Source: Candidatus Omnitrophota bacterium
GTDB taxonomy: Bacteria > Omnitrophota > Omnitrophia > Omnitrophales > Aquincolibacteriaceae
DNA: 64,000 bases
Reading direction: 5' to 3'
Assembly: GCA_035352955.1 (NCBI GenBank)
Contig: DAOPYQ010000002.1
Coordinates: forward strand, 233,267-297,266
Shown here: one piece after another, positions 1,833 through 64,000 of the stretch
Position numbering within the stretch: position 1 is the stretch's first letter
Layout of the letters: each line of letters opens with the position of its first letter
Notes under the pieces: model-generated
The model's input: only the letters and a program-made list of their open reading frames with translations
The model's database searches: none
Told to the model about the DNA's origin: nothing
Translations under genes and position numbers: made by a program

Positions 1833-2685
1833 CTTCTTGGATCCTCCTAGTTAGCAAACGGTGAAGTTTCAGGGTTACCGGCCCGGGGACCTTGTTGCCG
1901 ATCATCCGGCCGTCAAGCTCTCGTACGGGAAGGACCTCCCAGGAAGTATTGCAAAGGAAAGCTTCATCCGCGTTGAAAAAATCATGCCGGGTCAAAGGCG
2001 TTTCGCGGACCCGGACCCCGAGTTCGCGAGCGCATTTTATCACAAAGCGCCGGGTCACTCCATTCAAGATTAGGTGCTCCGGCGGCGTCAACAGCACTGC
2101 TTCCTCCCCCCTCGGAGCACGGGTTCCCGAAGCTTCGGAGCCCCAGTCTCCGAAGCGGTATTTCACGAGGAAAAAGTTGCCGGTCCGGGTCTCGGCAAGA
2201 TAATTCCCCCGATCCAAAAAGAGCCATTCGAAGATCCCTTCCGGATGCGGCTCCGTGCTCGCCAGAATCGCCTGATGATAGACCGAGGCCTTGACCTGAT
2301 AAGGAAAAGCGTTTGCACTTCCCCGCGGGAACGACGACGTCTTCAAAGTGACACCCTTTTCATAAAAGTCCGGAGAGATCTTACGCGAACCGATTATGAC
2401 GAAAATTTTTCCGCCGCAAAACGTCAGCCTGACCGAAGTGTCTTCTTCGCCGGAAGTTCTGAGCGCTGACTCCGCTTCCCTGCGCAAACTCCGTCGTTCC
2501 GGAAAGGGCCGGCAGCCTACGGTCTTCGCCGACTCCTCAAGGCGGTCGAGATGATCTTCCAGCCGAAAGATCTTTCCTCCGTAGGCGCGCATACTTTCAA
2601 ACACTCCCCCGTCCTCCTCCCGCAGCAACGAAAAGGCCTGCCGGTCTGAAACTTCCCGTCCGTTGGAATAGACCCGGTACTTCAT
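1786..2685 (-). CDS. Class IV aminotransferase-fold protein, probably aminodeoxychorismate lyase (PabC-like)
   Basis: Class IV fold motifs FRLEDHLDRL and EAFLCNT. The start is placed at the internal MKYRVY so it does not overlap the upstream gene. It lies next to a PabB-like gene, and its 3' end overlaps the purH start by ~46 nt. Confidence 0.55.
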   Translation of the reverse strand: MKYRVYSNGREVSDRQAFSLLREEDGGVFESMRAYGGKIFRLEDHLDRLEESAKTVGCRPFPERRSLRREAESALRTSGEEDTSVRLTFCGGKIFVIIGSRKISPDFYEKGVTLKTSSFPRGSANAFPYQVKASVYHQAILASTEPHPEGIFEWLFLDRGNYLAETRTGNFFLVKYRFGDWGSEASGTRAPRGEEAVLLTPPEHLILNGVTRRFVIKCARELGVRVRETPLTRHDFFNADEAFLCNTSWEVLPVRELDGRMIGNKVPGPVTLKLHRLLTRRIQEDVTPTHSSRPHQRLR

Positions 2686-19508: not shown

Positions 19509-19605
19509 GATGTTTTCGCCTCTCCTTAGCGGACTTGCCCAACAGCAAGTCCTGTTTCTAACGGGGTGAATGATCTTAAAAGTTCCGCTAGAATTGACCC
19601 GGACG

Positions 19606-19795
19606 GCGGCCCGACCGTCCCTGAAGCCTCCGGAAGGGAAATCTCCTCCCGAACCCTTGGAAATAATGAAAGCTGAAAGTCAAATGCCGACTGTTTTCGT
19701 TATCGGCATCTTCCGCTCCGATATTGACCGCGTTATACCCCCCAGGGGGGGGGGAATCCGAAACGCAAAATCCTAAATCCAAAAAACTTTAATCC
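19606..19795. repeat. ~190-bp direct repeat, copy 1 (flanks the COG1373 ATPase gene); contains C6-A-G9 and other hairpins
   Basis: Near-identical to 21113..21302 (…gaaataatgaaagctgaaagtcaaatgccgactgtt..cgttatcggcatcttccgctccgatattgaccgcgttataccccccagggggggggaatccgaaacgcaaaatcctaaatcc…). Confidence 0.8.
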
Positions 19796-39018: not shown

Positions 39019-39173
39019 GGATGGAGGATGACGGATGGCGGAGGGCGTAAAAGCCAAAGCTCCATCCGCCCCAACTTTTAATTTTATTTCTGAAAAGGTA
39101 GTTGGGACGGCCCCAATTTCCGCTTCGCAAAAATTGATAGGTATTGGGACCGCCCTCCGTCATCCGACATCCG
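39019..39173. mobile_element. MITE-like element with ~22-bp terminal inverted repeats GGATGACGGATGGCGGAGGGCG, intergenic copy
   Basis: The left end ggatgacggatggcggagggcg and the right end cgccctccgtcatccgacatcc are reverse complements. An inverted copy of the whole element lies at 39842..39942. Confidence 0.6.
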
Positions 39174-45100: not shown

Positions 45101-48100
45101 CAGCGGTCTCAGCACGTTAAACCCCTCTGCCGCGTGGCTCATCATCACGGGCCACTCCGCGGGATCGAGCCGCCCCGGCTTCTTCAGGATCGCGTCGGGC
45201 ACCGTGAGTTTGCCGATATCGTGGAACGCGAAGCTGTCGACCAGCGTCCGGGTGACATCAAGTCCCATAACCCCGGCCGTGGCAACGCCAAGCTCCGTCA
45301 CGCGCGCCATGTGATCGAGCGTGACTTCGTCTTTTTCCGCCATCTGTTCGAGCAGTGCGAGAAGCTCGCTCCCGACCGGCCCGTATTTCAGGACCCTCCC
45401 GATCGCCTCCTCCCCCGCCCGAAGTTCGCTCCGGTCCGCGGGAGTTCCCCAGGAGGAGCGGGAAACCTTCAGGGATATCTCGAGGGAAACTGCATAACTG
45501 CCTTGTTTTAAGATTGAAGCAGAGCTCTGAAGTCCGGCAATTTCATTCGTTCTTTTAATTCGATAGACACTTTCCGGGAATTGGTCTTTCAAAACCACTG
45601 CCCACTCGTTCCGTCCTCCAAACTCCGCTGTAAAATCATCCGTATCATCAGGAGCAATAACCAACCGCCCCTTTGGCTTCAATAAACGGAAAATGCTGGC
45701 CGCCTTCCTCTTCCCAGAATCAAAAAGATACGTTTCATCCGGATAAGGCGCCAAACAATAGACCCCCGCCACGAAAGCCGCTCCCTTTTGCGCGGCAAAA
45801 GCTTCGGAGTCCTTACCGAGGATGATCCGGACATTCCTCAAACCTTCCTGCCGGATCAATAAAACCATTTTGTTGAACAACGCCGGATCGGGTTCGATAA
45901 AAATGAACCGGGCCCCGGGATTCTCACGCACAAGCGAAAGCGAAATCCAGGATTCGCCGGGACCGATATCTACGAACAGGGGCGCCGCGGCATTACCAAA
46001 AACTTCCCGCCAGTCCGCCGTCACAGAAATGATCGGAGAAAAATCGTTTTTCGCGGTTGCTTGGCGGTCGTTTGTTTTTTCATTTTCCGGCGACGCTTTT
46101 TGCGTTTGCCGCGACTCGGAGCGGGCCTCCTGCCTGTCTGCCAACGTGTCCACGGCAGAGCTATCTCTTGTTTGTTTGCGGGCCAGTTCCTCTTCAGCGG
46201 CCCGCCGGACTTCCGTCAAAAGCGCTTCGGTCGAAATGTCTTCGGGCGTGCTTAAGAGGATCGCGGGAGCAACGCGGGCCAGGAACCGGAGGATGGCGAC
46301 ACTGCCGTAAGAATAGGTCCATTTCTTCTTGAGGTGCGTGATGTCACTAAAGCCTTCCTTGACGAAAACGCTGGTCGAGGCCTGGAAGGTGCTTGGCGTA
46401 TTTCCGTCCTCGCGCGCGGTCCGCACCAAGAGATCGGAAAAAGGAAGCATTCTCTCCAGGGTCAGCTGCGGGTACGGATCAAAGACCTCCTGCATCCCGG
46501 TAGCGTCCGTATCGAGATTGTAGAATAACGCCTGCTTCCTTGGCCTCGTGACGGAGGGATTCCCGAAAAATTTCCCGATCCATCCCCAACTGGTTTGCCC
46601 GTCAATGCCCGGCACGGACGCCGTCCGCCACAGATCAAGGCTTCCCTTGACCCAGAAGTGCCCGGCCAGGAACCCCGTCGCGCGAAAAGCCTGATTAAAA
46701 TTTTTCATGGTGATCCAGAAAAGGGAATCTCCAAGCACCCCGGATATTTTTTCCCAGTCTTTTAACCGCGCCGGATCTCCGACGGGAGGAAATTCACCGG
46801 GCATTTTAAAGAATGGCTTTGCCGGATCCGGGATCGCGCCATCCGGACCCGCCGAAGGGCTTTCGTCATGGTGCTCGTCCATAAAAAGCTGGATATTGCC
46901 GGAAGTCGGCATCTCCCCCCGGGCCGCCGCTTCCATGGCATATTTAGCGGAACTTCCGTGATCCCCCGCAAAATAAAAACTGACCGTCCCGCCGCCGGGT
47001 CTTTTGAAACGGATCACCACGTCCCGCGCGGGGACCACGGGATTTTCCCCCGCCTGGACGATGTCCTGCCAGGTCCCCAGGATCAGGGCCGGAAAATCGT
47101 TGGATTGCCAAACGCCCTTTCCGTCGGCCTGCCGCACAAAATGATAATGTGCCCGGTCGAATTCATCGAGGAAGGGGGGTTGTCCTTCTACCGAAGGTGC
47201 GTGAAGTTTCTCCGCCGGATAATACATCATGCCTTCCGCCAACCGATCGATCCGCATCTCAGCACGGCGGCTTTCATTAGAAGCCGGCTGAGAAGTGCTT
47301 GAATATTGATTCAAGCGCATCTCGGCTGGGGCTTCCTTGGTCCCAGCACGAGTGCGTGCAGGACTATGGATGTCCTGCCGCACCTCGGCGCGGGGAAGGT
47401 TTTGGTCCATGACGGCGATCACGTCTGTCACTATCCGCCGGAATTGCTCGTACGTAGGCGCGGCATTGGCAATACGCTGCCCATCCACCAGCTGTTGACC
47501 ACGGGCAGAGCTGTAAAACGACGCCGCGGTCGCGTCGGACACCGCATGACCCGTGACCCGGTTTGAAACAAGAGTGAGTACATCCTGTAAAACATGGCAT
47601 AACTCATGCCCCGAAGATTTCAGGAATAATCCGGTTAACCAGATACTTCCTCCCACAACGATCGTCGCGCCCGCCGAATACAGGAACAAGCCGGCATCGA
47701 TATGAGATCCTCTGTTCGCCAAGTCGTGAAGAACCATGCTCGCAAAGAGCGCCGGATAAACATGAATCCGGTCAAAGTAGCGGATCACTTTCACAGAGCC
47801 CGCCTCATCGAAATGGGTGGCGGTCTCTCCTCCGTTATATTGGAATATAAGCTTCCCCAACGAAAACACCAGGCTCCCAAGCCCCCATAGCGTGTGGAGA
47901 TAACGTTTGTGTTTGAGATCTTTAAAAATTTCCAACGGAGTGCGATAAAAGAACCGGTAAAGTTCATTGAATATGACTGCCGTCCAACTCCCCGGGGCTC
48001 GGACCACGGGAACGCCGTACCGGGCTGCCAGGATTTTGACAAAACGCTCGTAATCGGCCGCGTCCCTGAGCTGGCCGGGAACGGAGAACATCGTTGATTC

Positions 48101-51100
48101 CATCCAGGCCGAAGCCAAAACATCGTTCAATAACCGCTTTAAGGGCGGCCGTAATCGCTCATCCGCCGCAACGGCCGCGGTGGAACTGTCATCGATTTTC
48201 CGTGCCGTCCCGGTCCGTAATTCGTTTCGTCCGAATTTTTCGAGCCGCTCCCCGGTGAATTTCTCGAGATCCGCAAAACCTTCCCCCATCCTCCGGACAG
48301 CCTCCGAAAAAACCTCCCGGTTCCACGCCCGGTCCTGACTTTCAATGAAGACCTCGTAAGGGAAATAGAACATCTGCTCCATCTTTGTCATCGGATGTTC
48401 TTCGGAATTATTTTCCACCAGACGCCCGGCATCCCGGTATTTTGCGTAGCGCGGGCCCGCAAAGTCCTCCCGGATCGCCTTGACCAATTCCTGATACTGG
48501 GCCAGCACCGCCCCGACCCGGTCAAGATCGCCGCGGATATCTTTCGAAAGGTCCCGGGCCAAAAGACCTTTCTTTAAAAGAACATACATTTCGAGTTTGA
48601 GGGCGGCCAGCGAGTTCCTGATGTTATGGTCAAACCATTCTCCCCAGGTCACCCGGTCGCCGTCATAACCCTCCCCGAAGACCGAAAAACCGTTCTCAAG
48701 TTCTGTCACGATCCCGATCAGGTCCTCTAGATACTGGACCTTCTGGCGGAGTCTATAGATGTCCGTTCCCTTTTCCTCGCCCGCCGCGGCCTTGCCTCCG
48801 AAAGAATCCGCCCTTATCGGAGCCTCCGGATCGGGCCATGCGATCTCCCGGGGAACCTGGATCACGGAAGGAATCGTTCCATAAGACGCCACCGTCTTCG
48901 CGCCGAACAAAAGATCCTCATATCCGGGAACGATCCGGTCGTCGAACGCTTTTTCCGCCGAAGTATAAAAAAGCGACGCGCGGTCAAGGCGAACCTTCTG
49001 CGGCTCATGCGCCTCGCGGTTCGTGCGGCTTACGGCATCCGCGAGAATGGCCGCTTCTTCGGGGGAAAGCGGCGCCACCACATGCATCGCCGTAACGTGA
49101 TAACGGGTCCGCGGCCTGAAATTCGAAAGACCTTTGTGCCTTTCGAGAAGTCCTTCCACCATCGCGTCCATCGCGGCAAGATCCGAGTCCCGCGCCGGGT
49201 CGAACTCAAAAACAAGAAGCCGGCCTCCCTTGAAAAAAGCAAGCTTTCCGAGGTAACCTTCGGCCGACTTCATGGTCTCAGCCGCTTCGCGAAAAACCGA
49301 CGGGTCCTTTTCCAGTTCCGGGTTCCGGTCTGCGGGTCCCGCAACCAACGTGATGTGCCGGACCTCCGAAGGAACCAGCCTTACCTTGGCCGCGAGCTTG
49401 GGATCCGCGCGGTCGAGCTTGCGAAAAAGTTTCAAAAGCATTCCGTCCATATACGCGTTCGCTTCGGGATCGTTCCCGAGCCTGTGGGCAAACACAACAT
49501 GACGCGCCGGCTCGATCGGCTCTCCCTTGACACCCTCCGCCTTCATCGCGGCAATATCGTCCTCTTCGAGCCTCGCGAACTGTTTGCGGTATTCCTGAAC
49601 TCGCTGAACGGTACCGGGCACCTTGTGGACACTAAAGTGCTGCTTCGCCGCAGGTTGATCCGCCCGCATCTCAGCACGGCGGCCCCCCTCTGCCGCCGGC
49701 TGAGAAGTCCTCGGATATCGATCCGAAGGATCCTCGGCCCTCGGGATTCCCACAACGATGCGGTACAACTGCTCATTGTGCCGGTACAGTCCCGCGACCC
49801 GGCCAAGCGATTCCAGCGACCATCCTCGCTTTCGGGCCAGGGCCGTCAAGGAAGCAATCTCGTAATCGGTATACTTGGGAGATTCATCGCCGAGCATCAA
49901 CAGGGTCCCGGGATGCGAGCGCTTCAGAACATTCCCGACTAGCTCATCGATCTCTGGCTTGGAGGACAGGTAACGCGCCTGTTCCGGATGCTGCATGATC
50001 GAGGGCAATACATTGAGCATGATGACCAGATCAAAATTCTCACCAGCGGGGATCCCCCCGAAATCGGTCTTCCTCCCGCGGTCCATCGCGTCAAGCCGGT
50101 CCTTCAGGACCGAAGCCCAGGCCGACACTTTCGGCACTTTGAACTGCCGGTCAAGAGCCTCCCGGAGCGCCGCCACCCGCTCAACGTATTTCTCGTCGTG
50201 CACATCGCTGGGCTGCAGCAGGGTCACATCCACCCCGGCAGTTTCTAAGGCAAAACTGATATCAAAGAAATCGGACGGTCCCACCTCGAGGACTTTCTGC
50301 CCTGCCTTGATCCTGCCGCTCGCGAAAAGTTCCTGCGCAAACCGGACGGCACCTTCCTGAACCCGCCGCGCTTCCTCTTGCTCGAAGGAATACCAGCGCA
50401 CCACCCAGCTCAGAACATCCAGCACACCGGTCCGGTCAAACGCTGTCAGAAGGTCCCGGACAGGAATGCTCTTTCCCTGAGCCTTCGCGGGCGCCGTTGC
50501 TTTCACGGATGTTTTCCCCGCCCGTGATTCGGCGCGGACGTCCGGCGCAAGCCGGACCTTGAAGATCTTCACCGTCTGCGTGCCGGCGGGACGGCCGAAC
50601 GCGCTGACCGAAATGACCTCCTGGCGGATCTTTCTGACCGAAAGACCCTTTTCCTGTTTGAAGAGAGGCTCCAGGGTATTTCCAATTCCCATGACGTAGT
50701 AGGCGCCGCCGGGTTTGAGACGAACGGACAATTCGGACAGGGTTTTGGAAAACGTCCTGCCTCCGGGGTCTTCCGTCCTGAGATCCGCTTCGTTTCGGTC
50801 TTCGGAAGGAGCCGGGGCGTTATCAATAATGGCATCGTAGGTATCGCGGACATTCTCAAACCCGTCGCTTTCCCAGACCCGCACACGGTCCTGAAGGTTG
50901 TGCGCGTACACATTGGCCAGGCTGTTTTGAACTTCCAGCTTACCAATGTCCACGCCGTCGAGCTCGATACCCGGTACCGTTTTCCCGAGAACCACAAGCT
51001 CCGGACCTGCCCCCGACCCCTTAACCAGGATCTTTTGACCCGGACGGATCTCCGGAAGGACCGCGGCGAGCAGGACGGCAACATAGGGATTTTCGGGAGA

Positions 51101-54100
51101 ATACACATTGGCAAAAACGAGGAACCGGTAGTCGTTTAATGTCTGCTCCCGGAATTGAATGCGGTGGGCACTCGAAACATTGATCCGCTCGCCGGTCTTC
51201 TTTCCCGGAAAAACCACGGGCGAAAGCAGGTCCCGGCGGTCCCGCCAGAAGGAGAGCCACTCTTCTCCCGGATCAAATATGGATTTTCGCCCCTCAAAAA
51301 CCGTAGGGTCCAATTCCATCAAGCTGAGGTTCCCGCGTCTTGTTTTCTCAACCGCCAGGCCAAGAGGGTCGCCCTTATACGCAAGGAGCCAGGAACGGAA
51401 AACTTCGCCGTCTGAAAACCAATCGGCAAACCGGATCACCCGGTCAAGCGATGCGGACGGCTCGATCGGAAAAACGCTATAGCCCTCGCCAAGCGAAAGA
51501 CCGGCGGGTCCCTCGGGAGATATCCCGAGCGCCTTCAGGTAAAAATAAAGCGGCGAATTTTCCGAGACTTTCAAACCCTCCGCCCGCTTCCCTTCCCTCG
51601 GCGCCGCCCGCATCTCCGCGCGAAGATCGTCCTTTTTGCTCCCGGAATCAGCGTCTGCGGCTGAGCCCCTTCCCGAGATAAGATTTTCCCTCATGTACCA
51701 AGCCCCGTAGAGCTTCATATTTTCGGAAGGCGCCGGCACGGAAAACGCAACGGGCTTTTCCAGTGACCGGAGTGCGGCGGCAATAGCCTCGCGGGTTTCC
51801 CGATTGAAGTCCCCCGTTTTCGCGCGCAGATCCGCAAGAGCAGCCCGGATCCTTTCCGAACAACTCCGGTAAACGGAAGAGTTTCCGAGCGCGCGTCCCG
51901 CCTCAACCGCGATCCTCGATGCGCTGATGAAAACCGAGATCTTCACATAAATGTTCTCGCTCTCCTCTCCGAATCCGGTCAGCCCTTGCAGAAGATCTTC
52001 CAAAGCTGAGGGAGAAAGGACGGGCGCTACGCGCTCCATCCCCGCAAGGGCTTTCTTTCTCAGATCGCTTTCGCCGATCCCCTTGAAATTGGAAATAACC
52101 ATCCACTGGGCCGTAAAAAACATGGCCCCAAAAACCGCTAACCCGGCCAAAACCATGCCGTTTTCGGCAAACCATGCGTTCATCGGAGATTTTGCGGCAA
52201 ATTCGGGACGAAGCGCGAAAAGAACTCCGACCATCATCGCCGCTTGAGCTACCGCAATGCTTTGAACGAGCCCGACGAGCGCGATCCTTTTCAGGATCTT
52301 TATCAGCCGGCGGTCTCGCCATGTCTCGGCGGTTCCTTTACTGCCATCCTTGAGCACTTTCAACCAGTAGACCGCCTCGACCGAAGCGATCCATTCCGTT
52401 CTCACCTGCTGCATCAGCTGTGAAGATCCGGCCGGTGCGGCGTCCTCAATCAACGCATCGAGGACCCTTCCGAGATTTTCTTCATAAATAATGGTGAGCC
52501 CTTTAGGAAAGAGACGGGCGAGACGCGAATCGCTCGGCAATCGGGAGAGATCAGCTCCCGCGGCCAACATCTCCCGGAGCGCAAAAAGCCGGGCGATCAC
52601 TTCAAGCTCCAGAGAAGTCGCCGGACGTTTAATGTCTTTTCGTAGGATCGCAAGCTGTTCGCGTGTCCGGGACGCCCATTCTTCATCTACATTCGTGCCC
52701 CGTTCCACGATCCGGACCGCCCCAGAACCTTGGGACAGCTTCGCGCCTGCACCCACGGGAGCGGCGTCAGAAACGGTAACAGAAGGCTCGTGAAGAGCCT
52801 TTTGCGGAACGGTTTTCTCCAAACCCTCGACCGCCAGAGAAATTTCCTTCCCCAACGCGAAGCCAACGATCCCGAGTCGGGACCGGGTCTCGAGAAGCCC
52901 TCTCCGGAGCATCCGGACTTTCTCTTCGCTCACATGGATGACCGGAAGCTCCCCGGGATCTTTGGAGACCGAAACGGCGAGCCGGGAAGCACTTAAAAAT
53001 GCCTGCATTTTCAGGGAGAGATCTTTCTGGTCCTCCGCGAACCGGATCAGACGGTCCGTCATATCCGCGCGAACTTCGGACGCCAGATCCGGCGCGATCT
53101 TCGCAAGCTCCACAAGTGCGTTTTTTCTCAAAACGGCTTCCGCGATCCCGCCGGTGCAAGCGAGGATCAGGAAATTTAAACCGGAGAAAAGCCCCACGAA
53201 TCCGGACACCGCGGTAAAAAGAACCCGGCTCTCCGCGAACCCTCCCTGCGCCGCGGAATTCGCGCCGCCGAAGTAAAAAGACCCCAAAGCCCCGGCCAAA
53301 ACCGCCGCAGCCTGAACGATCCCGGCGATCGAAAGTCTCCGCAAAAGTTTTTCGGTGCGCCGCTGTTTTTCCGTCCGGGCAAAGCCTTTTCTGCCGTCCA
53401 CCAGGACCTTGAACCAGTAGCCGGCTTTCACCGTAGCGCTCAAGGCCGCTTTTTGATCCGGCGAAAGCCCGGCATCCCCGGCCCTTTCGACTTCCCCGAT
53501 CAACGCTTCCAGGATCCTTTCCAGATTCCCGGAATAAATAAGCAGGAGCCCTTTCGGGAAAAGGCGGCCAAGCCGAGAATCAGCCGGAAGTCCGGAAAGA
53601 TCCGCGCCCTCGGCCATCATGTCGCGAAGCGCGAAAAGCCGGGAGAGAACTTCAAACTCTCGCGGGAGCGCGGAACGCCTGATGTCTTTTTGAAGCGTCA
53701 CATACTGTTCGCGTGTCCGGGCCTCCCATTCTTCATCCGCGGTCCAGACACGAGTGCGTGCAGGGCTAAGGATGTCCTGCCGCAATTCAGCCCGGACAGA
53801 TCTGGGTTCCTTTTCATATCCCCTTGCGGCCTCGCGGGCGGTCGAAAGAACGGCAATGCTGCCAAGATCGAGAGCTTCGTTCATGGGCCGGATCTTTGAC
53901 CGGTCTTCCCCAGAGAAGGTGCTGCTCACCCCTCCCACGTACGTCGCGAACTTCGGGGAAGAACCCGTTGCTCCGGTGGAAGGATACATTTTTTCCAAAG
54001 TCCTGAGCATCAGCCGCGCGGCCAGGATAAGACGATCGCGAAGTTCCTCCTTGGAGGAACCTTTTTCGAAAGAAGCCGCGAGGGTGTGTTCCCCCGAGAG

Positions 54101-57100
54101 ATCGCCCTGGGGTTCGAAATCAAAGATCATATGAACCGCCTGCTTGGGATCATGCCCTCTAAAGCCGAGGTCTTGATGCCGGTAGGTCCGTTTGAGACCG
54201 TGGTGAGGCGTTACGACGATCGTGATCTCATGCTCAAGAAAATAGAGGCTTGCGAAAACGTTCACGTCCTTCTGCCCGCTGTGTTGAAAGGCCCGCATGG
54301 CTGCGACCTCGCCGGAAAGACGCTGCGCAAAAGTTTCCAGAGACGCTTCATTCCACTCGCCGGAGCGGAGCGTCAAGGCTTTCCGGTCCCCTTGCTCATC
54401 GAGAAATTCTTCCGCGATCTTTCCCTGCGATATTTCCGTAGCGGTTTCCGTCTGCGGGGCAAGCGCCTTGGGGGCGACAGCCGGGGTCTTTTTTTCCGGA
54501 AAATATTTCTCGAGGAAAAGGGCTATCCGACGGAACAGCCCCGGAGCTTTGGCTAAAAAAACTTCTTTGGGGCCGGGGAGAGCCTGCTCCGCGTTTCTCG
54601 ATAGGATCGCGCTAATTGAACTAATATCCGCTTCGACCCTGTTCGTCCGGGAGCGCGTCATGAGCCACGGACCTTCCTGGATCTCACGGAGTATGTTGTC
54701 AACTTTCGCCTGAAGGACTACGGCGTCGGCTTCGAGCGACGCGTCAGGCTCGCAGAACGTCCCCTGCGGGGTTTCCGTCGCAAGTTCGAGCGCACGAAGA
54801 TAAAGGTTGGTCGCGCGGAAAAGCGCGGGGTCTTCCGACTTGAGGAGTTGTCTCTGCGCCAATAAATTCCGCGCCATTGATTCCGCAAAACGTTCCCGGT
54901 TCGCCCCCAGGATCACCGTATTGACGATAAGATCCGCGGTCAATGTTCCGACCGCATACTGCTGGTTCGCATTAAGCCGTCCGTCCGGATCCAGATCGTA
55001 AATGGGCCCGTGAATGCCAAGCTCCCTCAACAGCCGTTCCCCGGCCTGCCGAACGAGCGCGTGGTCGAACGAATAAGAAAGGCCGAGCTGGAGCGCGTTC
55101 CGCGGGATAAGGATTATTTCCCCCATCATCGAGACCGCGACGTCATTCGCCAAAGCAAAAGAGAGGTTTTCCAGGGGAGAAATCGCTTTTGCTTCCTGGC
55201 GTTCGTAATGGGCCCAATAATCATTCCGGAACTTCGCGAAATCTTCTCCGGTCTCGAGGATCCGGACCCGGGGCGTCACGTCCAGATGCGGGAAGATCTT
55301 TTGCGCCTCCTCCATCGTTCGCGCCACCCAGGCTTCCGAAAGAACGTCCCCCTCCGCCCCATGTTGGCGCATCTCGGCTGGGACTTCCTTGGTCCCAGCA
55401 CGAGTGAGTGCAGGACTATGGAGGTCCTGCCGCAGCTCGGCACGTACGGGAAGCAAAGAACGGGTTTCCGCGCCGGCCTGGCCGACAGGCTGGCCGTCCC
55501 CTTTCTTTTTGAGTGTGACGACTTTTTTCCGGAGCTCGAGGGGGGAGGTGTAAAGCGGAACGGTCCCGTCCAGTTTTCCGGAGGCTTCCCCGGCGGCTTT
55601 TTGAACGATCTCCGAAGGATCTTTTTGCCCCCCGGCAAGAGTTGTCAGAATATTTTTCCAGGCCTCTTCTTGCCCGGTGCCAAGACGCCCGGCGATCTCC
55701 CCGATCGCAAAAAAGGCCGCCCTCCGGATAGCGTAATGATCATGCCTTGCGGCTTTCATTAATACAGGGAGCGATTTTGTGTCGCCGGCCCGGCCCAAGG
55801 CCTCGGCGGCTTCCTTACGGGCCGGAAGGAAATCATCTTTCCGGACCGTTTCGCGGAGCGCGGCAAGTACAACCTCCCGCATTTCCGCTCCCAGATGCCC
55901 GGTGCGCAGGAACGCGCCCAACGCGATCGCCGCCGCCGGCCTCAAAGCCATATCTTCCACATCATTCTTTTTCAGTAGATCGATCAGAAACGGGATCAGC
56001 TCGACTTGCTCTTTTGTGCCGGCGCCAAGGATGGCGAGGATCTTGCCGGTATTCATGATCGGAATAACCTTGAGCCTGGCCCTTGCCTCAAGCCATCGGG
56101 TCACGAGACGATAGGCGGCATAGGCAGCCAGCGCAGCGCCGGCGACGTAGTAGAGGTCGCTCCCCGTCCATTCGCCGCGGATCAATCGGTCGCCCAGGAA
56201 CGCGACGCCCGGGACCGCATCCGCCCGCAGCTCGGCTGGGACTTCCTTGGTCCCAGCACGAGTGAGTGCAGGACTATGGATGTCCCGCCGCAGCTCGGCG
56301 CGCATCGGCTTCCGGTCAAATTTCCGGCGCAGCACGGTAACATTGTCGGGCGCGGTCTTGCCTCCCGCGTACTCGACATATTGTTCCGCTGAAGTTCCGT
56401 ACGAAACAAACCCCCGGATCCGCTCATCGCGAAACTCCCGGGACTTCCCCGCGTGGAATCCATAGATCCCGTCCGAAGCCAGAAGGACCTCGACCGCGCT
56501 TGCGTCGCTCAGGTCGATCGTCTGGATATCGACTACCGGGATCAGGATCTTCCGGAAAGCCCGGTCCCCGAAAGAACGGCCCGTGATATGGGATTTCCCG
56601 GTCACGGGATCCGTCAAATACCACCCGCCGTTTTTTTGTTCCGCAAACGTATAATCGCGTCCTTCCAGGAGCCCGGCTTTTGCGGCCACCCCCCGGTAAG
56701 CATCCCGCTGTTTCGGGTCCGAAAAATGCTGTTCCTCGACCGGAACTTCCTTTCCGTCCTTGAGAAGATATGCCGGAGAATCTCCGATCAGCATAAGGTG
56801 CAGCGTCTTCCGGTCCGACGGCACGAATACGCAGGTGAGGGTCGAGCCCGACTTGAATCCTTTCATCATGGAATAAAGGATTTTGAACGTCCTCTCAAAC
56901 GCCGCGCGGATATCGCCTCGATTCAGGAGAAGCGCCCACTTGAAGACGGGCGTCAAAAGAACGCTCAGAAATCTCGAAACGGCCTTTCCGCCGTGCCCGT
57001 CCATGACCGCCATCATCTGCCCTTCAACCTTCATCCATCCCGGGACCCATACTCTGAGTTTTCGATCCACAAAACTGTCTTCCTGGGGCAGCGCAAGTTC

Positions 57101-60100
57101 CGGGTGTCCGATCTCGCTGCCGCGGGCCTGCGCGATCTCCGTTCTTTCCGGATCCTTGAAAGAGATCCGCTCCCAGGCGCGAGAAGAAACACTGGCAAGG
57201 CTGCGAAGGACGGCCCCGAGGACCTTAAGGGCGGTGCCGCCGGCGATGCTGATCATCAACCCGAGGGACCATTCCCTGACTTCCCGGGCGTTAAGGAACA
57301 TCGCCCACTTGAATTCCTGCGGAGAAAGAACGCCTTTCCCGAAACCGCGATCCAACATGAACAGGGAACAGCCTCCCGGTTTTCGCATATCAAAGACGGC
57401 GGCGTAATCGGGGTAGAGCTTCAGTTCGTCGGCGGGGAGCGGCCTCGGCCCGACAAGAGACATTTCTCCCTTAAGGATGTTGAGGATCTGCGGGAGTTCG
57501 TCGAGAGCGGTCCGGCGAAGGAACGCGCCGATCGGGGTCGGGATCCGGTCGCCTCCTTCCGGCATGGTCCGGAACTTGTACATCCAGAAAAGTTTCTGCC
57601 GGTAACCCGGCCGTTCCTGCCTGAAAAAGACCGGCGCCCCGATCCACGGCGCAAAGAGCAGTGTCGCCGCCGCCAGGAGCGGCAGCAAGGCCACCGCCGC
57701 CGCGACATCGATCACCCGGATCCACGGCGCCCATTTCGCGTACGGCGTCTTCCGGAATTCTTTCGGCGTAATAATATTCCGGTCGCGCCCCCCGAAAGAA
57801 ACCGCTTTACCACCCCCCTCGGAGACCCGGTCTCCGAGCTGCGGCGACTGATCGCGAAGCTCGGCGCGGCCGCGAGCTTTCGATGGAGCGGACGAATTAA
57901 GATCCAGAGCGGCCAATTCTTCCAGCGAGGAAGCTTTTAGTTCCGGAAAAAGCTTCGCTTCCGTAAAAGCGAGGATCCTGCCGGAGCGCCCCCGGACCTG
58001 CTGATCGATCGCTTTTGAGATCAGCTGCGCCGCGCGGATCACTCCCTGCCGCTGCCTTTTCAAGATAGCTTTGGCGCCCGCGCGCAGAAGACCTTCCTCG
58101 CTCTCCCCGAAGAAATCTTGCATGGCTTCCGTATAACCGGACAAATTCTGCTGAGGCCAGAGATGAACGCCCGATAAAATCCCTTTCTGATCGTAAATAA
58201 GCGTGACTCTGATCCAGTCGGAAGCGTAGAGACTGCGCGACACGTCGTACTTTGTTCCCCGGATCGCCTGGAGATGGGAAGTGGCCTTTTCTTCGAATCC
58301 CAGAAGCACCTGCTGCCTCTTTTCGGAGATCGCCAAGGCGCCCAACCGTTGCCCCGGTCCGGCTTTCGCGGGGATCATTTGAGAAAGGATCCGGACAGTG
58401 ATGTCGTCGTTTAATCCGTAGGGGCCCAGTTCCGCCTCTCGCTGGCGGACCAAGCTTTCCTCCGGCTCGTCTCCCGCAAGATCCGTCCGCAGCTCGGCTG
58501 GGACTTCCTTGGTCCCAGCACGAATGCGTGCAGGACTATGGATGTCCTGCCGCCGCTCAGCGCGAGGCTGGCCTTCGGAGGATCTCTTCTGCTGCAAGTC
58601 GGCACGGGATAACCACCCCCACCGGATCAGGAGATCGACGGCTTCTTTTTGAAAATTTCCCGCCGCGGATCCTTTCGCCTTCAACTCGGATGCGATCCTC
58701 TCGATCACCTGCCATTCATCCCTGTGTTCCAGAGCGGCTCTTTCAAAGACGGCTTCGAGCATTCTTCCGCGAATTGAAAGATCTTCTTCCTGAGAAGCGG
58801 TGAACGCCAGGATCTCCTCAAGGAGCGAACGGGCCACAAGCTTTTTTTCTTCGGCTTCCGTCAGCGGGACCTTGTGCAAATACCGCTCCTGAAGCTGGCC
58901 AAAATAACCCGTCAAACCCGAGCCTGTTCCCGGAAGGCCGGAGGCCATCAAGGGGCCTCCCCTCATGCCGTCTTGCAGGAGCTTTGCGTTCATCGCGTGC
59001 GCTGCTCCGACGTTGTAGACGACATTCGCCCGGGGATAGCGGCGCAAGAGTTCGAGTTTTTGCTCGCGAATGAGTTCATCTCGCCGGAGAGTTAATTCCG
59101 CCATCAGTTGCCCGATCTCGCGATAGGTTTTGAACAATTCACCGGTTTCATTTTGATAAAAGAACTGCCCGAGGGAGCCCCCGAGCGCCCTGGCCCGGAA
59201 ATAAAGGTCCCGCCAGACCTCATAGCTCACTTGCATCGGGAATCTTACACGCACGCCGGCGCCGGCCATCCAAAAATCCCGTCGCTTGACGAAACCGTCT
59301 GCCGGTACTTTCGCCCACCGATCACGGGTCTTTTCAAGCCGCCTCGAAACCGTAAGGTCATCCTGTTCGATATATCTCACGGCCCTTTCGCGGGTGACCT
59401 TTTCATAAACCGCTCGGAGCTCCCGGTCATGTTCCGCGAGGATCGCCGGCCACGGAAGTTCACGGATCCCCGCCGGCAGGCGCGCCAGCATATGCTGCGG
59501 AGACATGATCTCTTCAGGGATCACGATCAGTTCCGGATACCCATGGCGGGCAGGATTTTTGTAGGACCTTGCGACAAGCCTCTCCAGCTCCGGACGGATC
59601 TGCTCAAAATCTGCCGTGGTCAGATGCGACGAATACAGGTCGAAGGCGTGCCCTTCGATCACCGCGTCCCGGGAACTTTGCACCCGGAAGACCCGGAAGA
59701 CGCTCAGACCCATGCCGGCCGCCACCGCGAGAGTTCCGCCCATGAAAAAATTCCGCCTTGAAAAACCCCTGCCCTTCGCCGGTAAGGAAGGTTTTTCCGG
59801 TTGCCGCAGAAGCTGAACGCCTTCCGCTGCCCGCTTCCCTTCAACCACGATTGCCTTCGCCCGTATCTCCGAGCGCTTTTCACCCATCCCAGAACCAGGT
59901 TCCCAATCTCCGTCTTCAGGGGCCTCACCTACAGCATCTTGAGCGGGCCGCTGCATCCATTTCCAAAGAACTGACGGACGGATCCCCAACCCCAACCGGA
60001 GCATGGCCCCGACAACCGCTCCGAATTCGAAACCCAGAACCCATGTGGATGCAAAAACCGTAGCGATCGAACCCGCGAGGATCATCCATATTTCCCAATC

Positions 60101-63100
60101 AAGAATAATGCGGAGAGCCGCATAAGCGTTCCAGCTCCGCGGGGAATGGAAGAACCTCAAGATACCTTTTTTCCCTTCCAGGAGATCCTTGAGGGTAAAC
60201 AGAACGGGAACATCAAAGAAAAAGCTTGGCGTTGTAAACTCAGCGAACCCGCGCACCTGTTCATAGGGCTTTTCGACGACACTCCAGCCGAATTTTTCGA
60301 CGGGGATGTAAGCAAAGTTCCGCGCAATATCCGGACCGCAGGTATACGTCACGAAAATTTCTTTTTTGCGCTTGGCGTCTTTCATCCAGCTTGCGATATC
60401 GTCTTCGGTAACATCTCCGTCCGAAGCCGTCCAGGTATTCCACTTCCCGTGCCCTGCCACGCCAAGGTACCCCACAGACGGATCCAGAAGATTTCTTTTC
60501 AGATCTTCCCGGCCGGAATTCTTCAGAACGCGGAACGAAAACCCCTTGAGCCGCCAGTAGATCCGCGCGAACCAAAGCCATGGCTGGATCGCTTGATAGA
60601 TCTCCTGTGTACTGACCAGAAGAACAAATTCCTTTTTCGCTTCCGCGGAAACCGGCAGCGTCTTCACCTGATCGGGTTCTTGAGCGGAAATGCTTCGCGA
60701 AAACACCTCCGGTTCTTCGGCCTCCGGGATCTTCATGACGGCGAGAACGTCCTCGAGATCTCCGATGAAATCATCCAGGGACTCATACCGGAACTGCCGT
60801 TCAAGCCCGCAGCGCTTGAGCATGGCAAGCAATTCCGCCGGCATATAGCCGATCTCCGACAACGCTGCCGACGTCAACCCCTCGTCATTGCGCAGGGCGA
60901 TCCCGTTGAGCATTTTCCCAAGGCGCATCAAGTCCTTCGTGGAATACAAATTAAAGTCGATGACCGTGAATCGCTTTTCGGGACCGGAAAGAAAAACGTG
61001 CCAGTATTGCAGGTCCCCGTGGTTTTCGCCCGTCCAACGCTGGAATTCCCTGAGAGCTTTCGCAAAAGCCAAAAGCTGCGGCGCCAGCACCGGAAAATTT
61101 TCCCGGAAATAATCCTCACCCCGAAGATCCTTTGTGCCCCAGAGAAAGTCACCCAGTTTGACGCCTTCAACGGGCTCTGTAACATTGACCGGATTCCCCA
61201 GAGGGTCCTTCAGCGTGATCCCTCCCGCGAAATACCGGGTCCAGGGCTCCATCTCATGTTCTTTCAGGACTTGAAAGATCCGGGCCTCCCGCAGCAGGAA
61301 CCGAGGCTCCCGCCGGTCGTTCAACCGGAGCCAAAAATCTTTTCCGAGGAAGCCGTCGGGACGGATCTCCACCGCTTTTTTGACCCGCTTGCGCTCGTCC
61401 TGATCCGACGCGTCATGGAAACCTTCCCCCTCGATCAAAAACCGCCTGCCTTCCAGCGCCACGATGTCCCCGGCCAGGATCTTCTCGTAATGTCTCGTAT
61501 CCTTCACCACCCGAAGCCCCGAAAGATCGGGCCGGACCTTCCCTTTCCGGCTCACCCCTTCGGAGACCCGGTTTCCGAGGCGGGTCGGTTGGTCGCGCAA
61601 TTCCGAACGCCGCCGAAATTCGTCCGAGGCCCAGCCGCGAAGCGTCGAGAGAATATGTTTTTTAAGAAACCTGCTTTCAAGCGAGTCTTCGGCAACGGCG
61701 CGCGCTTCGAAAGAACGCGGCATCGCAAGAGGCCCCGGGCAGGCATCATGAAAGAAAGGCTGGATAAGCGCGTCTTGGGCGACCCGTGCAGGAGGAGAGC
61801 GGCCTTCATCGTCGCCCTGCGGGTCCACCGCGATCCAGGTCTTCAGATGTTTTTCTTCCAGGGTCCTAAAATATTCGGAGAAAAATGTTTTGATCACCGT
61901 GCCCGGATCCGGGAAGAACTCCTTCCGGCCTCCGATATCGAGCGAACGGAAAACAGCGCCGAAGATCGCGGCCTTCACGACCACCTGATCCGCACCCCAA
62001 CGTTCCCCGAAGGACCGGAGGCTTGTCAGGTCCGTTTCCTCTCCCGCGAGCGTTTCGTCTTGAATGTGAAGCGTGTTTTTCCTCAGGCCGGCGTTCTGCT
62101 TGAACGCCTCCTGCCTGCCCATTTTCTCCGCGTTCATCAGGATAAGTTCGGAAGCCGAAAGAACTTTCCCTTTGGGAAGCATCCCAAGGCCGGCCAGGGC
62201 TTCCGAAAGACGCGTCCGGAACCGGGCGAGGTGCGGATCGCTTTGCAAAAGCTGCGGGAACTTGACCCAGCGGTGCGGCGTCAGCGTCCGGTAGAAAAGA
62301 AGGCGGGCAGTCAATGTTTTCCCCTGTCCCTTCGTTCCTTCGCGAAGTTCGGAAACCGTCTGAAGGGCCCCGGCTCCATCGGGGAGAGCGTCGAGGCCGC
62401 GGATCCCGAGGAGCTCGATGAATTCGCGGTTTTTATTCGTCATTTTTTGAAAATGTCTTTTCCCGAATCCGATAGAATCCTCCGTCAGCACGCCTTCATA
62501 ACGGCCAGCAAGATCATTCCAGAAGTGGACCGGAGCATGCTTCGTTTCCTCGTTGGAATAAAGCTCCCCCACGCCTTTGACCGCAAGCCATGTCCCGTCC
62601 CGCAACGGGAAATAAACGGTCCGGAGATTCGCCACCAGAACCGGCATCAGACTTTTTTCGGACGAACGGTCCGTCACGCCCACAAGGATCTTTTGCCCGC
62701 GGCGGAGCATCTCCGCGACGACGGCCGGATCGCGCGAAGCGAGAAAAACGGCATGCTTGTCAAAAAACTCCTCACCTCCCATCGCTTTCACCGCGCCGGG
62801 ATCGATCGCCTCGAACGACCCGGTAAAATGTCCGGCCGGCATCACCGCCATGAACACCGGTTTAAGCGCATGATCCTCCAAAAGAACCCGTTGGATCTCG
62901 TCCGTGAACAAACCTCTCAGCGCCGGATATCCCGCCAGCCCTTCTTCGTGGAAATAAGCCTCGAAGCGGCCGCTCACCCCCTCGGAGACCGGGTCTCCGA
63001 AGTGGGTGGGTTGTTCACGCAATTCCGCGCGAACGGAATCTGCTTCGGCGATGCGAATCGCCGAAGGGAGATCTTCCCATCCCGGAAACGGCTTCATGTC

Positions 63101-63793
63101 TTTCAGGAAATCTTCCAGGGAGGCTCCTTTTTTAAGAAACATCCGGCGACTGAACACCGGCACGAAGGTGTTCAGCGCGGCGTCCCGAACCAGATAATAC
63201 TCCGGCTTTCTCCGGCTGTTCTGATGGTAAGCCTCCCCATCATGCGCCGCGATCAGAACGCGTCCCTTTTTCTGGAAAACAGGGACGAGCGTCACGGTCT
63301 TCCCCGCCAGATCGGAAAGCCGGTGGATGTCAGCGCTCCGCCCGTTTTCTTTTAAATACAGGATGCCGTTGGAAGCCACCGCAACGTCATGTCCGTAAAT
63401 CCCAAGCGGGACCTCTTTGCCGTGCGCGTAATCGATCAGCGCAAGCCGCCCAAACCGCACCGGCGCCGCCTTTTCGCCACCCGGGACTTGCTTAAAACTT
63501 TCTTTCCCGGAAGGAAAACGCGGGACGGCCGCTTGTCCCAAAGAATGCCTGTAATAAGTCGAAACGATCTTTCCGGAAACTTTGTCGCGTACGGCCATGT
63601 AGATCCCGTAAACGGGGTGTTCCTCCAGAGAGATCTCGGCAGGCTGAAAACCGCTACGCCCTTCATAAATAGCTTTGGCCTCCGGGAGCGTCACAAGCTG
63701 GTTTCCCAAAAAATTCACAAAATGCGGGGAGCCGTGGTAGCGATCGATCAACCCGCGGCTCTGGTGCCGCGATTCACGGACAGAAACCGTCAC
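39179..63793 (-). CDS. Giant multidomain protein (8,204 aa; putative GTG start). Modules N→C: unknown (aa 1–740), kinase-like fold, TM/[8 protein letters not shown] segment, phosphoglycosyl transferase (Bac_transf), PP2C phosphatase, HEAT repeats, unknown, 2× ~380-aa membrane module, 2× SAM-MTase, possible 2H phosphoesterase, HExxH, SAM-MTase, HD-GYP, SAM-MTase, unknown C-terminus
   Basis: A single stop-free frame of 24.6 kb carries recognisable motifs throughout. A PglC-like block …[22 protein letters not shown]…[22 protein letters not shown] lies at ~57340–57700. A PP2C block MAVMDGHGG…GSTLTCVF…LIGDSPAYL…LLASDGI lies at ~56300–57030. An HD-GYP block HD…[14 protein letters not shown] lies at ~44860–45380. 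Four GxGxG SAM-MTase folds lie at ~50600–51120, 49920–50310, 45550–46010 and 42050–42650. Chance absence of stops over 8,204 codons is implausible at this GC content. Confidence 0.8.
   Translation of the reverse strand: [8204 protein letters not shown]
39842..39942. mobile_element. Inverted, partially degraded copy of the MITE-like element, inserted in-frame inside the giant ORF
   Basis: It is the reverse complement of 39040..39170, including the core cccaatacctatcaatttttgcgaagcggaagttgggg. In the giant ORF it is read as …[29 protein letters not shown]…. Confidence 0.6.
41600..41672. repeat. In-frame palindromic repeat, A-type unit (encodes …[23 protein letters not shown]…)
   Basis: cgcatctcggcgcggccgcccacctttgcggccggccgagaaatgcttgaatacggattcaagcgc contains the hairpins GGCCG…CGGCC and GCTTGAAT…ATTCAAGC. 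Confidence 0.75.
42972..43168. repeat. In-frame palindromic repeat, composite B-A-B units
   Basis: Two copies of the B unit ctcggctgggacttccttggtcccagcacgagtgcgtgc(a/g)ggactagggatgtcctgccg flank one A unit. It encodes [67 protein letters not shown]. Confidence 0.8.
47253..47392. repeat. In-frame palindromic repeat, A+B units
   Basis: Near-identical to the other copies and encodes [47 protein letters not shown]. Confidence 0.8.
49665..49740. repeat. In-frame palindromic repeat, diverged A-type unit
   Basis: cgcatctcagcacggcggcccccctctgccgccggctgagaag… encodes …[18 protein letters not shown]. Confidence 0.6.
53735..53795. repeat. In-frame palindromic repeat, truncated B unit
   Basis: …cacgagtgcgtgcagggctaaggatgtcctgccgcaattcagc encodes [18 protein letters not shown]. 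Confidence 0.6.
55367..55443. repeat. In-frame palindromic repeat, B unit
   Basis: cgcatctcggctgggacttccttggtcccagcacgagtgagtgcaggactatggaggtcctgccgcagctcggc encodes [27 protein letters not shown]. Confidence 0.8.
56225..56303. repeat. In-frame palindromic repeat, B unit
   Basis: Same unit, encoding [27 protein letters not shown]. Confidence 0.8.
57811..57870. repeat. In-frame palindromic repeat, C-type unit (hairpin CGGAGACCCGGTCTCCG)
   Basis: It encodes [20 protein letters not shown] immediately N-terminal to the phosphoglycosyl-transferase module. Confidence 0.75.
58488..58563. repeat. In-frame palindromic repeat, B unit
   Basis: It encodes [28 protein letters not shown]. Confidence 0.8.
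61551..61612. repeat. In-frame palindromic repeat, C-type unit
   Basis: ctcaccccttcggagacccggtttccgaggcgggtcggttggtcgcgcaattccgaacg encodes [20 protein letters not shown]. Confidence 0.75.
62974..63033. repeat. In-frame palindromic repeat, C-type unit
   Basis: ctcaccccctcggagaccgggtctccgaagtgggtgggttgttcacgcaattccgcgcg encodes [20 protein letters not shown]. Confidence 0.75.
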
Positions 63794-64000
63794 GGGATAA
63801 ACCTGACGGGCCCGGGTTCGCGCGAGCTCAAAAGAGCTCCCGCTGTAATAATCCGAAATATCCCTCTCGGAAAAAACGAAAGCCTCCTTGCCGGCATACG
63901 AAAAAAGCGGATAAAGAACATCCGCCCGGCCTTGCTGGTAGTTCCAGAATTCGGATTCCAGATAAAAATTCGCGACCTGCCCGCGCTTCGGGTCCCGCTC

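What the first reader, a model, noticed from the sequence alone, without database searches (positions are those of the whole stretch)
57811..63033. Second in-frame hairpin unit (CGGAGACCCGGTCTCCG) encoding '…LGDRVSEG…', restricted to the N-terminal third of the giant protein
Three copies at 57811, 61551 and 62974 share a 17-nt perfect palindrome flanked by conserved arms (ctcaccccctcggagaccgggtctccga…gcaattccg). Like the B units, they begin with RAELR in the peptide and share the gcgca/ttccg flank logic, which suggests one repeat super-family with exchangeable hairpin cores. One copy sits immediately before the phosphoglycosyl-transferase module.
Basis: seen in the sequence. Interest (0 to 1): 0.6.

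Follow-up and report, generated by a model that had tools for sequence, protein, structure and literature searches.

The report
In-frame palindromic element in giant-gene linkers
Three short hairpin-coding repeats between modules of a giant Omnitrophota protein combine an old peptide "punctuation" motif with a small palindromic DNA element that also sits in-frame in an unrelated housekeeping gene and in that gene's counterparts across the phylum.

Summary
In detail: three in-frame ~60-nt units (RAELR-DQPTxLGDRVSEGVS) lie at 57809-57868, 61550-61609 and 62972-63031 on the minus strand, and their flanks are unrelated. Each unit has two layers.

1. **Peptide motif.** R[AS]E[LMIVA]R is conserved as amino acids: all 10 third-codon positions in motif plus spacer vary. 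It occurs 18 times here (0.26 expected). It also punctuates giant modular proteins of other organisms without any hairpin (P0062, P0044, P0028).
2. **Palindrome.** TCGGAG-ACCSGGT-CTCCGA is conserved as nucleotides (1 of 7 third positions varies).

Module homology begins right after the units. The palindrome is not confined to the giant gene. A doublet of it forms a 17-19-aa in-frame insertion in a disordered loop of a class-IV aminotransferase 55 kb away. Orthologues in other Omnitrophota carry hairpins at the same site and register, with an invariant ACCSGGT centre and covarying stems (0/500 shuffles). Within this genome the outer stems of the two loci match 12/12, against 2-9/12 for orthologous arms elsewhere.

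Best reading: a REP/RPE-like palindromic DNA element family, tolerated in-frame at permissive protein sites. A function for the hairpin is not excluded. The organism is Candidatus Omnitrophota. The ORF runs off the window, so "N-terminal third" is an artefact.

The parts
39179..64000 (-). Giant multi-enzyme ORF. It is open to the window edge: 8,204 codons counted from the GTG at 63793 plus 69 further open codons up to the edge; called at 10,513 aa in the identical MAG contig.
62972..63031 (-). C unit 1 (aa 255-274, RAELREQPTHFGDPVSEGVS). Motif at 63017-63031, palindrome core at 62983-62999. Homology of module M1 starts right after it.
61550..61609 (-). C unit 2 (aa 729-748, RSELRDQPTRLGNRVSEGVS). 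Palindrome at 61561-61577 with one A.C (sense) / G.U (antisense) position. Homology of module M2 starts 8-15 aa after it.
57809..57868 (-). C unit 3 (aa 1976-1995, RAELRDQSPQLGDRVSEGGG). Palindrome at 57820-57836. About 30 aa upstream of the PglC-type sugar-transferase domain.
2110..2155 (-). Doublet of the C-type palindrome (CTTCGGAGACTGGGGCTCCGAAG | CTTCGGGAACCCGTGCTCCGAGG). It forms an in-frame 17-19-aa insertion (YRFGDWGSEASGTRAPRGEE) in the class-IV aminotransferase gene (1786-2739). The first half is read in the C-unit frame and the second half in another frame.
63043..63066 (-). Unique 10-bp hairpin (CTTCGGCGAT..ATCGCCGAAG) immediately upstream of C1's RAELR. It shares the CTTCGG/CCGAAG ends.
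58502..58564 (-). Family A unit (RAERRQDIHSPARIRAGTKEVP), one of 7. The other six are at 56240-56302, 55382-55444, 53732-53794, 47330-47392, 43109-43171 and 42983-43045.
43025..43108 (-). Family B unit with both flanking motifs (PAEVRLNLHSSTPRPAAKVGGRAEMR), one of 4. The other three are at 49658-49741, 47246-47329 and 41594-41677.
59861..59875 (-). Bare RSEIR punctuation motif with no repeat core. Other bare motifs are at 51608-51622, 45419-45433 and 40364-40378.

Best explanation
Each C unit is a composite of two things. The first is an ancestral peptide punctuation motif, R-[AS]-E-[LMIVA]-R, that precedes modules in a family of multi-enzyme giant proteins. The second is a small palindromic DNA element (TCGGAG-ACCSGGT-CTCCGA in this genome). 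This element belongs to a family with an ACCSGGT centre found across Omnitrophota. Members sit in-frame inside coding sequence where the protein tolerates extra residues: inter-module linkers, and a disordered loop of a PabC-like aminotransferase. Shown: the two-layer constraint; the bare motif in other organisms; module homology starting right after the units; the same palindrome as an insertion in an unrelated gene, read in two frames; hairpins at the orthologous site in other species with an invariant centre and covarying stems; and stem sequences that match between unrelated loci within this genome better than between orthologous loci across genomes. Inferred: the copies are spread or homogenised at the DNA level, either by transposition through a hairpin-recognising enzyme as for REP/REPIN elements, or by gene conversion or template switching between copies. 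Also inferred: selection only filters for frame, absence of stops and a permissive location, as with Rickettsia palindromic elements. On this reading the encoded 'LGDRVSEG' peptide is a by-product. The three C linkers themselves look like old duplicates of a 60-nt motif+spacer+hairpin segment, since their synonymous sites are saturated outside the palindrome.
For: 1. In motif plus spacer, 10/10 third-codon positions vary against 5/20 first/second positions. In the palindrome, 1/7 third positions vary. Fisher p = 0.0014. The two amino-acid changes in the palindrome (D->N, R->P) fall on a wobble position and on the loop centre. 2. Two of the three C hairpins are more stable than recodings of the same peptide (1/500 and 33/500). 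3. The motif count is 18 against 0.26 expected here; P0044 has 14, P0062 has 11 and P0028 has 4, all bare. In P0062 the motif is coded by mixed Arg and Ser codons with z about 0. 4. Module homology starts at ORF aa 272-277, where C1 ends at 274, and at aa 756-763, where C2 ends at 748. 5. The aminotransferase insertion is absent from PDB homologues and lies in a loop with pLDDT < 50 between two strands. Each of its halves is 19/23 identical to the C255 core, and the second half is read in a different frame. 6. The loop insert is 0, ~5, ~12 or ~19 aa in 120 orthologues. 7. Five orthologues with DNA share the same pairing register; 7 of 22 pairs have double-sided changes; covariation is 0.441 against 0.227 +/- 0.039, with 0/500 shuffles as high. 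L011 has a perfect 22-bp stem. 8. The outer stem is 12/12 identical between the window's aminotransferase arm and C255/C1976, against 2-9/12 for orthologous arms. 9. The exact genome-specific variant is absent from 185,579 species genomes, the metagenome set and viral contigs apart from chance matches.
Against: No transposase or RAYT-type gene is in the window. The rest of the genome could not be read, so copy number, intergenic copies and mobility are untested. All three giant-gene copies share strand, frame and position relative to RAELR, which fits duplication of a linker segment better than three independent insertions. Perfect 22-bp stems kept at an orthologous site across species, with an invariant centre, could equally reflect purifying selection on a functional hairpin. 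Only two loci carry the C core in 64 kb. The 12/12 stem identity carries only about 6 independent positions because the sequence is a palindrome.
Confidence: 0.55

Rival explanations
1. The hairpins are functional mRNA structures placed at module junctions. They would pause ribosomes for co-translational folding, block exonucleases, or mark sites where the very long transcript is processed.
For: The units lie exactly at module boundaries. Structure exceeds synonymous recodings. Covariation is seen in family B and in the orthologous aminotransferase hairpin. Whether giant Omnitrophota transcripts or proteins are cut is an open question in the literature.
Against: An RNA structure does not need the same stem sequence at unrelated loci of one genome. 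C2 does not fold in sense RNA. Single stem changes show no strand preference, about 7 G.U in sense against 5 in antisense. Relatives with the same motif have no structure at their linkers. Many orthologues have lost or degraded the aminotransferase hairpin. A 22-bp duplex inside a housekeeping coding sequence has no obvious benefit.
Confidence: 0.2
2. The palindromes are duplex DNA sites for a sequence-specific protein. Candidates are a dimeric regulator, a nucleoid protein, or a CCSGG-specific modification or restriction enzyme. In this case the conserved centre is the point and the hairpin is incidental.
For: The ACCSGGT centre is invariant in every arm across five species while the outer arms vary.
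Against: The outer stems change by paired substitutions that keep intrastrand complementarity. That fits a folded hairpin or cruciform better than a fixed duplex site. The sites are all intragenic. The bare 9-mer GACCSGGTC occurs only 4 times in 64 kb.
Confidence: 0.1
3. The unit is purely a protein linker, duplicated with the linker segment and kept similar by peptide selection or gene conversion. The palindrome is then a coincidence of codons.
For: All copies share frame and orientation. The RAELR-DQ part is under amino-acid selection. The linkers are rich in P, S, T, R and A.
Against: Third-codon positions in the palindrome are invariant while neighbouring synonymous sites are saturated. 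Radical replacements (R->P) are tolerated. The same DNA is read in a different frame in the aminotransferase. The hairpin exceeds recoded controls.
Confidence: 0.05

Closest known systems
Rickettsia palindromic elements (RPEs; Ogata et al. 2000, 2002, as summarised in PMC10969869)
   Same: Palindromic repeats inserted in-frame into unrelated protein-coding genes. They add a peptide at sites compatible with the protein fold, form several families, and can be shared at orthologous sites between species.
   Different: RPEs are about 100-150 bp, while these elements are 23 nt as a singlet, about 46 nt as a doublet, and 60 nt for the whole C unit. The phylum differs (Omnitrophota, not Rickettsia) and no sequence relationship was found. 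Here the centre is invariant and the stems covary across species. Most copies seen here lie in the linkers of a single giant gene.
REP / REPIN elements mobilised by RAYT (HUH Y1) transposases (from my own knowledge)
   Same: Short 20-40-nt palindromes occurring as singlets and as inverted doublets that fold into one long hairpin. Each genome has its own 'master' sequence, they persist at orthologous sites, and they evolve in concert within a genome.
   Different: REPs are extragenic by definition and carry a conserved GTAG end. These elements are intragenic, in-frame, and have no GTAG. No RAYT gene was seen, and copy number is unknown.
[quoted passage not shown]
   Same: Coding repeats whose DNA shows dyad symmetry. 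They are dispersed within and between genomes.
   Different: PARCELs are 25-residue amphipathic domains in tandem arrays in membrane or surface proteins of Mollicutes and others. The units here are single and non-amphipathic, and sit between enzyme modules.
Structured RNA at polyprotein domain junctions (HIV-1 genome SHAPE work; from my own knowledge)
   Same: Strong RNA structure coincides with inter-domain linkers of a long multi-domain translation product.
   Different: That case concerns unique structures in a viral RNA, not a repeated element shared with other genes. No functional evidence exists here.

Membership tests
Rickettsia palindromic elements (RPE) | Palindromic repeat inserted in-frame in protein-coding genes | tested here: met
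   In frame in the giant ORF. In-frame insertion in the aminotransferase relative to homologues.
Rickettsia palindromic elements (RPE) | Length about 100-150 bp and membership of the ten described RPE sequence families in Rickettsia | tested here: not met
   Elements are 23-60 nt. The organism is Candidatus Omnitrophota.
Rickettsia palindromic elements (RPE) | Dispersed in many unrelated genes of one genome | tested here: inconclusive
   Two unrelated genes within 64 kb carry the C core.
REP/REPIN | Short imperfect palindrome occurring as singlets and as inverted doublets that form a long hairpin | tested here: met
   C units are singlets. The aminotransferase insert is a doublet that folds as one long hairpin.
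REP/REPIN | Extragenic location | tested here: not met
   All copies lie inside ORFs. The nhmmer search found none in intergenic DNA of the window.
REP/REPIN | A cognate RAYT (Y1 HUH transposase) gene in the genome | not testable with these tools
   None in the 64-kb window. The whole genome is not available, and the organism is apparently not among the species representatives: the exact C variant gave no true hit in that scan.
REP/REPIN | Genome-specific master sequence, meaning within-genome similarity exceeds between-genome similarity | tested here: met
   Outer stem is 12/12 identical within the genome against 2-9/12 for orthologous arms elsewhere.
Known structured RNA family (Rfam 15) | Match to a curated covariance model | tested here: not met
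   No hit at gathering threshold or at E <= 5 within 39000-64000.
Polyprotein cleavage site | Short conserved peptide motif recurring at boundaries between independently folding modules | tested here: met
   18 motifs against 0.26 expected. Pfam domains and module homology lie between motifs. The same motif is present in P0044, P0062 and P0028.
Polyprotein cleavage site | A protease that cuts there, and cleaved products | not testable with these tools
   No peptidase domain in the part of the ORF inside the window. The upstream 2,309 aa were not seen, and no proteomic data are available.

The most novel reading that the evidence does not exclude
The R[AS]ExR motif, and in other lineages GARL or SSSP motifs, would be true punctuation marks of 'multi-enzyme' giant genes: the sites where the polyprotein, or with the adjacent hairpins the transcript, is cut into module-sized products. 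Omnitrophota giant genes would then work as operons written as one ORF. The palindromic elements would have been recruited at, or preferentially kept at, these junctions.
Probability: 0.2. Interest if true: 0.9.

Novelty: new variant of a known kind. Interest (0 to 1): 0.7.

Why it matters
Giant genes of Omnitrophota are a recent puzzle. The two papers I could read describe their domains but say nothing about linkers, palindromes or hairpins. One of them states that cleavage points are unknown. This work contributes two things.

- **Candidate module boundaries.** A peptide motif enriched roughly 70-fold or more over chance sits at module boundaries in several unrelated giant proteins. That gives concrete candidate boundaries or cleavage sites that proteomics can test.
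- **A second case of palindromes living inside coding sequence.** A palindromic element family with an invariant ACCSGGT centre, stems that covary between species, and stems that are homogenised within a genome is a rare example outside Rickettsia. It may help explain how linkers of giant modular genes evolve.

It also matters for annotation. Short repeated 'peptide' motifs in these proteins can be by-products of DNA elements.

Tried and rejected
- **Known RNA families and tRNAs:** nothing at the units.
- **Internal translation starts.** The idea was that x in AExR is often Met and that the A-unit loop reads AAGGAA. Real genes here use AAGGAG 5-8 nt before ATG in AT-rich spacers. The unit's SD-like loop is 13 nt away and inside a GC stem, and the x codons include CTT, ATA, ATC, CGG and GCG.
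- **Frameshift or slippery sites before the hairpins:** none seen by inspection.
- **'AExR plus any hairpin' as a general rule:** the four bare motifs show no excess structure.
- **Target-site duplication of the motif around A units:** left and right copies differ in most units, so this looks like a tandem-repeat register instead.
- **Strand of folding from G.U versus A.C changes:** about 7 against 5, uninformative.
- **Public-collection scans with GGARACCSGGTCTCCGARGGGG:** one hit each in genomes and metagenomes. Both are chance: L004 has no shared flanks, and L005 is an HlyD-type 'LGDRVSEG' lipoyl motif. Viral scans for A, B and C gave zero.
- **Linker-peptide search in 5.8 billion proteins:** nothing at E <= 10, but a single 20-aa unit would be below detection.
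- **Other checks:** two further GACCSGGTC 9-mers in the giant gene are not extended palindromes. The perfect hairpin in purH (1038-1061) is not an insertion.
Full report
**Observation.**
The 17-nt palindrome is present at 57820-57836 and 62983-62999. Both copies are perfect and differ only in the unpaired centre base. A third copy with one stem mismatch is at 61561-61577. This is far more than chance gives: 7 matches at <=2 mismatches against 0.05 expected. All three lie on the minus strand, in the frame of a very long ORF. They encode RAELRDQSPQLGDRVSEGGG, RSELRDQPTRLGNRVSEGVS and RAELREQPTHFGDPVSEGVS. DNA similarity is confined to about 60 nt, and protein self-comparison finds only these 20-29 residues in common. 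The ORF is open to the window edge. The window is 100% identical to a public MAG contig in which the gene is called at 10,513 aa. 'N-terminal third' is therefore a truncation artefact. A housekeeping neighbour identifies the organism as Candidatus Omnitrophota.

**Context.**
The ORF is a mosaic of modules. The recognisable ones are a PglC-type sugar transferase, PP2C, HEAT, four methyltransferases and an HD domain. The remaining modules have no Pfam match. Besides C there are two other short in-frame repeat families:
- A, seven copies (RAELRQDIHSPARTRAGTKEVP).
- B, four copies (AEVRLNLHSSTPRPAAKVGGRAEMR).

Each has its own hairpins. All families are much more structured than synonymous recodings of the same peptides. 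Family B has five compensatory pairs, with 0/500 shuffles as high. Family A has a G-C to C-G swap that costs two radical amino-acid changes. With only three copies, family C shows no significant covariation of its own.

**Two layers in the C unit.**
In the RAELR motif and the following spacer, all 10 third-codon positions vary but only 5 of 20 first/second positions do. This is the pattern of amino-acid selection with saturated synonymous sites. In the 21-nt palindrome only 1 of 7 third positions varies (Fisher p = 0.0014). Its two amino-acid changes (D->N, R->P) fall on a wobble-type position and on the loop centre. The motif is therefore conserved as peptide and the palindrome as nucleotides.

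**The motif.**
R[AS]E[LMIVA]R occurs 18 times in the ORF against 0.26 expected, including four boundaries with no repeat core. An exhaustive profile search with ORF aa 187-1306 found 124 relatives of the modules, many of them proteins of 4,000-7,000 aa. Homology starts at ORF aa 272-277, and C1 ends at 274. It starts again at aa 756-763, and C2 ends at 748. Three relatives from other organisms carry the same motif:

| Protein | Motif count | Expected |
|---|---|---|
| P0044 | 14 | 0.13 |
| P0062 | 11 | 0.05 |
| P0028 | 4 | 0.04 |

In these proteins the motifs have unique flanks and no repeat cores. In P0062 the motifs use mixed Arg and Ser codon families and show no excess structure. The M1-type module is preceded by the motif there too, with short unique spacers. 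Other relatives use different repeated marks: GARL x20, SSSP x14 and QGTGE x7. P0014's linkers are also repeated, palindrome-rich DNA. The motif is thus an ancestral peptide-level punctuation, and the hairpin cores are lineage-specific additions.

**The palindrome elsewhere.**
A weak profile hit at 2106-2158 lies in a class-IV aminotransferase gene. Its neighbours suggest a PabC-type lyase: orthologues sit in a PabB-like / aminotransferase / PurH arrangement, and in the window an Acyl_transf_3 gene lies between the PabB-like gene and the aminotransferase. Against solved homologues the protein has a precise 19-aa insertion between the conserved 'FxVK' and 'TPP' strands. In a model the insert is a loop with pLDDT < 50 between two strands. 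The insert DNA is two tandem hairpins, each 19/23 identical to the C255 core. The first is read as FGDWGSE, the same frame as the C units. The second is read in another frame, as ASGTRAPRG. The nucleic-acid palindrome, not the peptide, is therefore the conserved entity.

**Across the phylum.**
Among 120 Omnitrophota orthologues the same loop carries 0, ~5, ~12 or ~19 extra residues. Many of the long inserts read as translated palindromes such as DRVS...ETRS. DNA from five orthologues shows long hairpins, including a perfect 22-bp stem at -46.4 kcal/mol in L011. Four of them, plus the window, align without gaps in one pairing register; L012, with one extra codon, was left out of that count. Each arm has an invariant centre (ACCGGGT or ACCCGGT). 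Seven of 22 pairs carry double-sided changes. The covariation score is 0.441 against 0.227 +/- 0.039, with 0/500 shuffles as high. Cells paired are 87%, against <=51% when the partner is slid. With the shared centre excluded, the outer stem of the window's aminotransferase arm is 12/12 identical to the C255 and C1976 stems in the giant gene. It is only 2-9/12 identical to the orthologous arms in other genomes. Similarity between unrelated loci within a genome thus exceeds similarity at the same locus between genomes. That is the signature of an element family that spreads or is homogenised genome-wide.

**Public collections.**
The exact genome-specific variant has no true match in 185,579 species-representative genomes, in the metagenome set or in viral contigs. 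This fits a lineage-specific stem.

**Mechanism.**
I favour (0.55) a REP/REPIN-like or RPE-like palindromic DNA element. It would be copied by an unidentified hairpin-recognising enzyme, or by gene conversion or template switching, and retained only where it is in frame and the protein tolerates it. The three C linkers look like old duplicates of a motif+spacer+hairpin segment.

Rivals:
- A functional mRNA hairpin at module junctions (0.2).
- A duplex protein-binding or modification site centred on CCSGG (0.1).
- A purely peptide-level linker (0.05, largely refuted).

No transposase is present in the window, and the rest of the genome could not be read. Mobility and copy number therefore remain inferred.

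**Comparison and novelty.**
RPEs share the in-frame palindromic insertion but are 100-150 bp and specific to Rickettsia. REP/REPINs share the singlet/doublet form and the genome-specific master sequence, but they are extragenic with a GTAG end. PARCELs are tandem amphipathic domains. Neither Omnitrophota giant-gene paper mentions linkers, palindromes or hairpins. One notes that cleavage points are unknown. I class this as a new variant of a known kind. The separate open possibility is that the punctuation motif marks real processing sites.

Noticed in passing
window 19601-19656 (-): An nhaA-I (Na+) riboswitch match (53.9 bits; gathering score 37). It lies just upstream of the 1,907-aa PATR autotransporter gene (13785-19508), which is an unusual gene to follow this riboswitch.
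   Followed up: no
window 39110-39172 and 39845-39907: A 63-nt inverted repeat (about 97% identical) brackets the last ~220 codons and the stop of the giant ORF. Between the arms a 20-nt unit (CTTCGTCATCCTGAGCGCAG) occurs twice in tandem at about 39542-39582. This may be a small inserted element that supplies the present C-terminus.
   Followed up: partly
proteins P0015, P0078, P0084, P0033, P0014; L009 218-8767: Other giant relatives use different highly repeated short marks between modules: GARL x20, SSSP x14, SSPI x10 and QGTGE x7. P0014's linkers are 80-93% identical palindrome-rich DNA repeats. Whether GARL and SSSP are peptide-level or DNA-level was not tested.
   Followed up: partly
window 29283-29307 (+), 3' end of the MutY gene: A perfect 8-bp hairpin, GGGGAGAC-N9-GTCTCCCC. 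Its arms share GGAGAC/GTCTCC with the C stem. It could be a relative of the element or a terminator.
   Followed up: no
window 52428-52687 and 53478-53737: A 260-nt direct repeat (73% identical). It reflects a tandem duplication of a ~350-aa segment inside one orphan module (aa ~3350-3980; 50% protein identity over 97 aa).
   Followed up: partly
P0001 (L006/L007), 2,744 aa: The module upstream of C1 (M0) has repeated homologues in a protein from another organism that also contains two sigma-70-like regions. No AExR linkers are present there.
   Followed up: partly
window 40179-40204 and 63150-63175: Two further perfect hairpins inside the giant ORF: CTCGGGTTTACGG..CCGTAAACCCGAG and CTGAACACC..GGTGTTCAG. 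Neither belongs to families A, B or C. The first shares the CTCGG/CCGAG ends.
   Followed up: no
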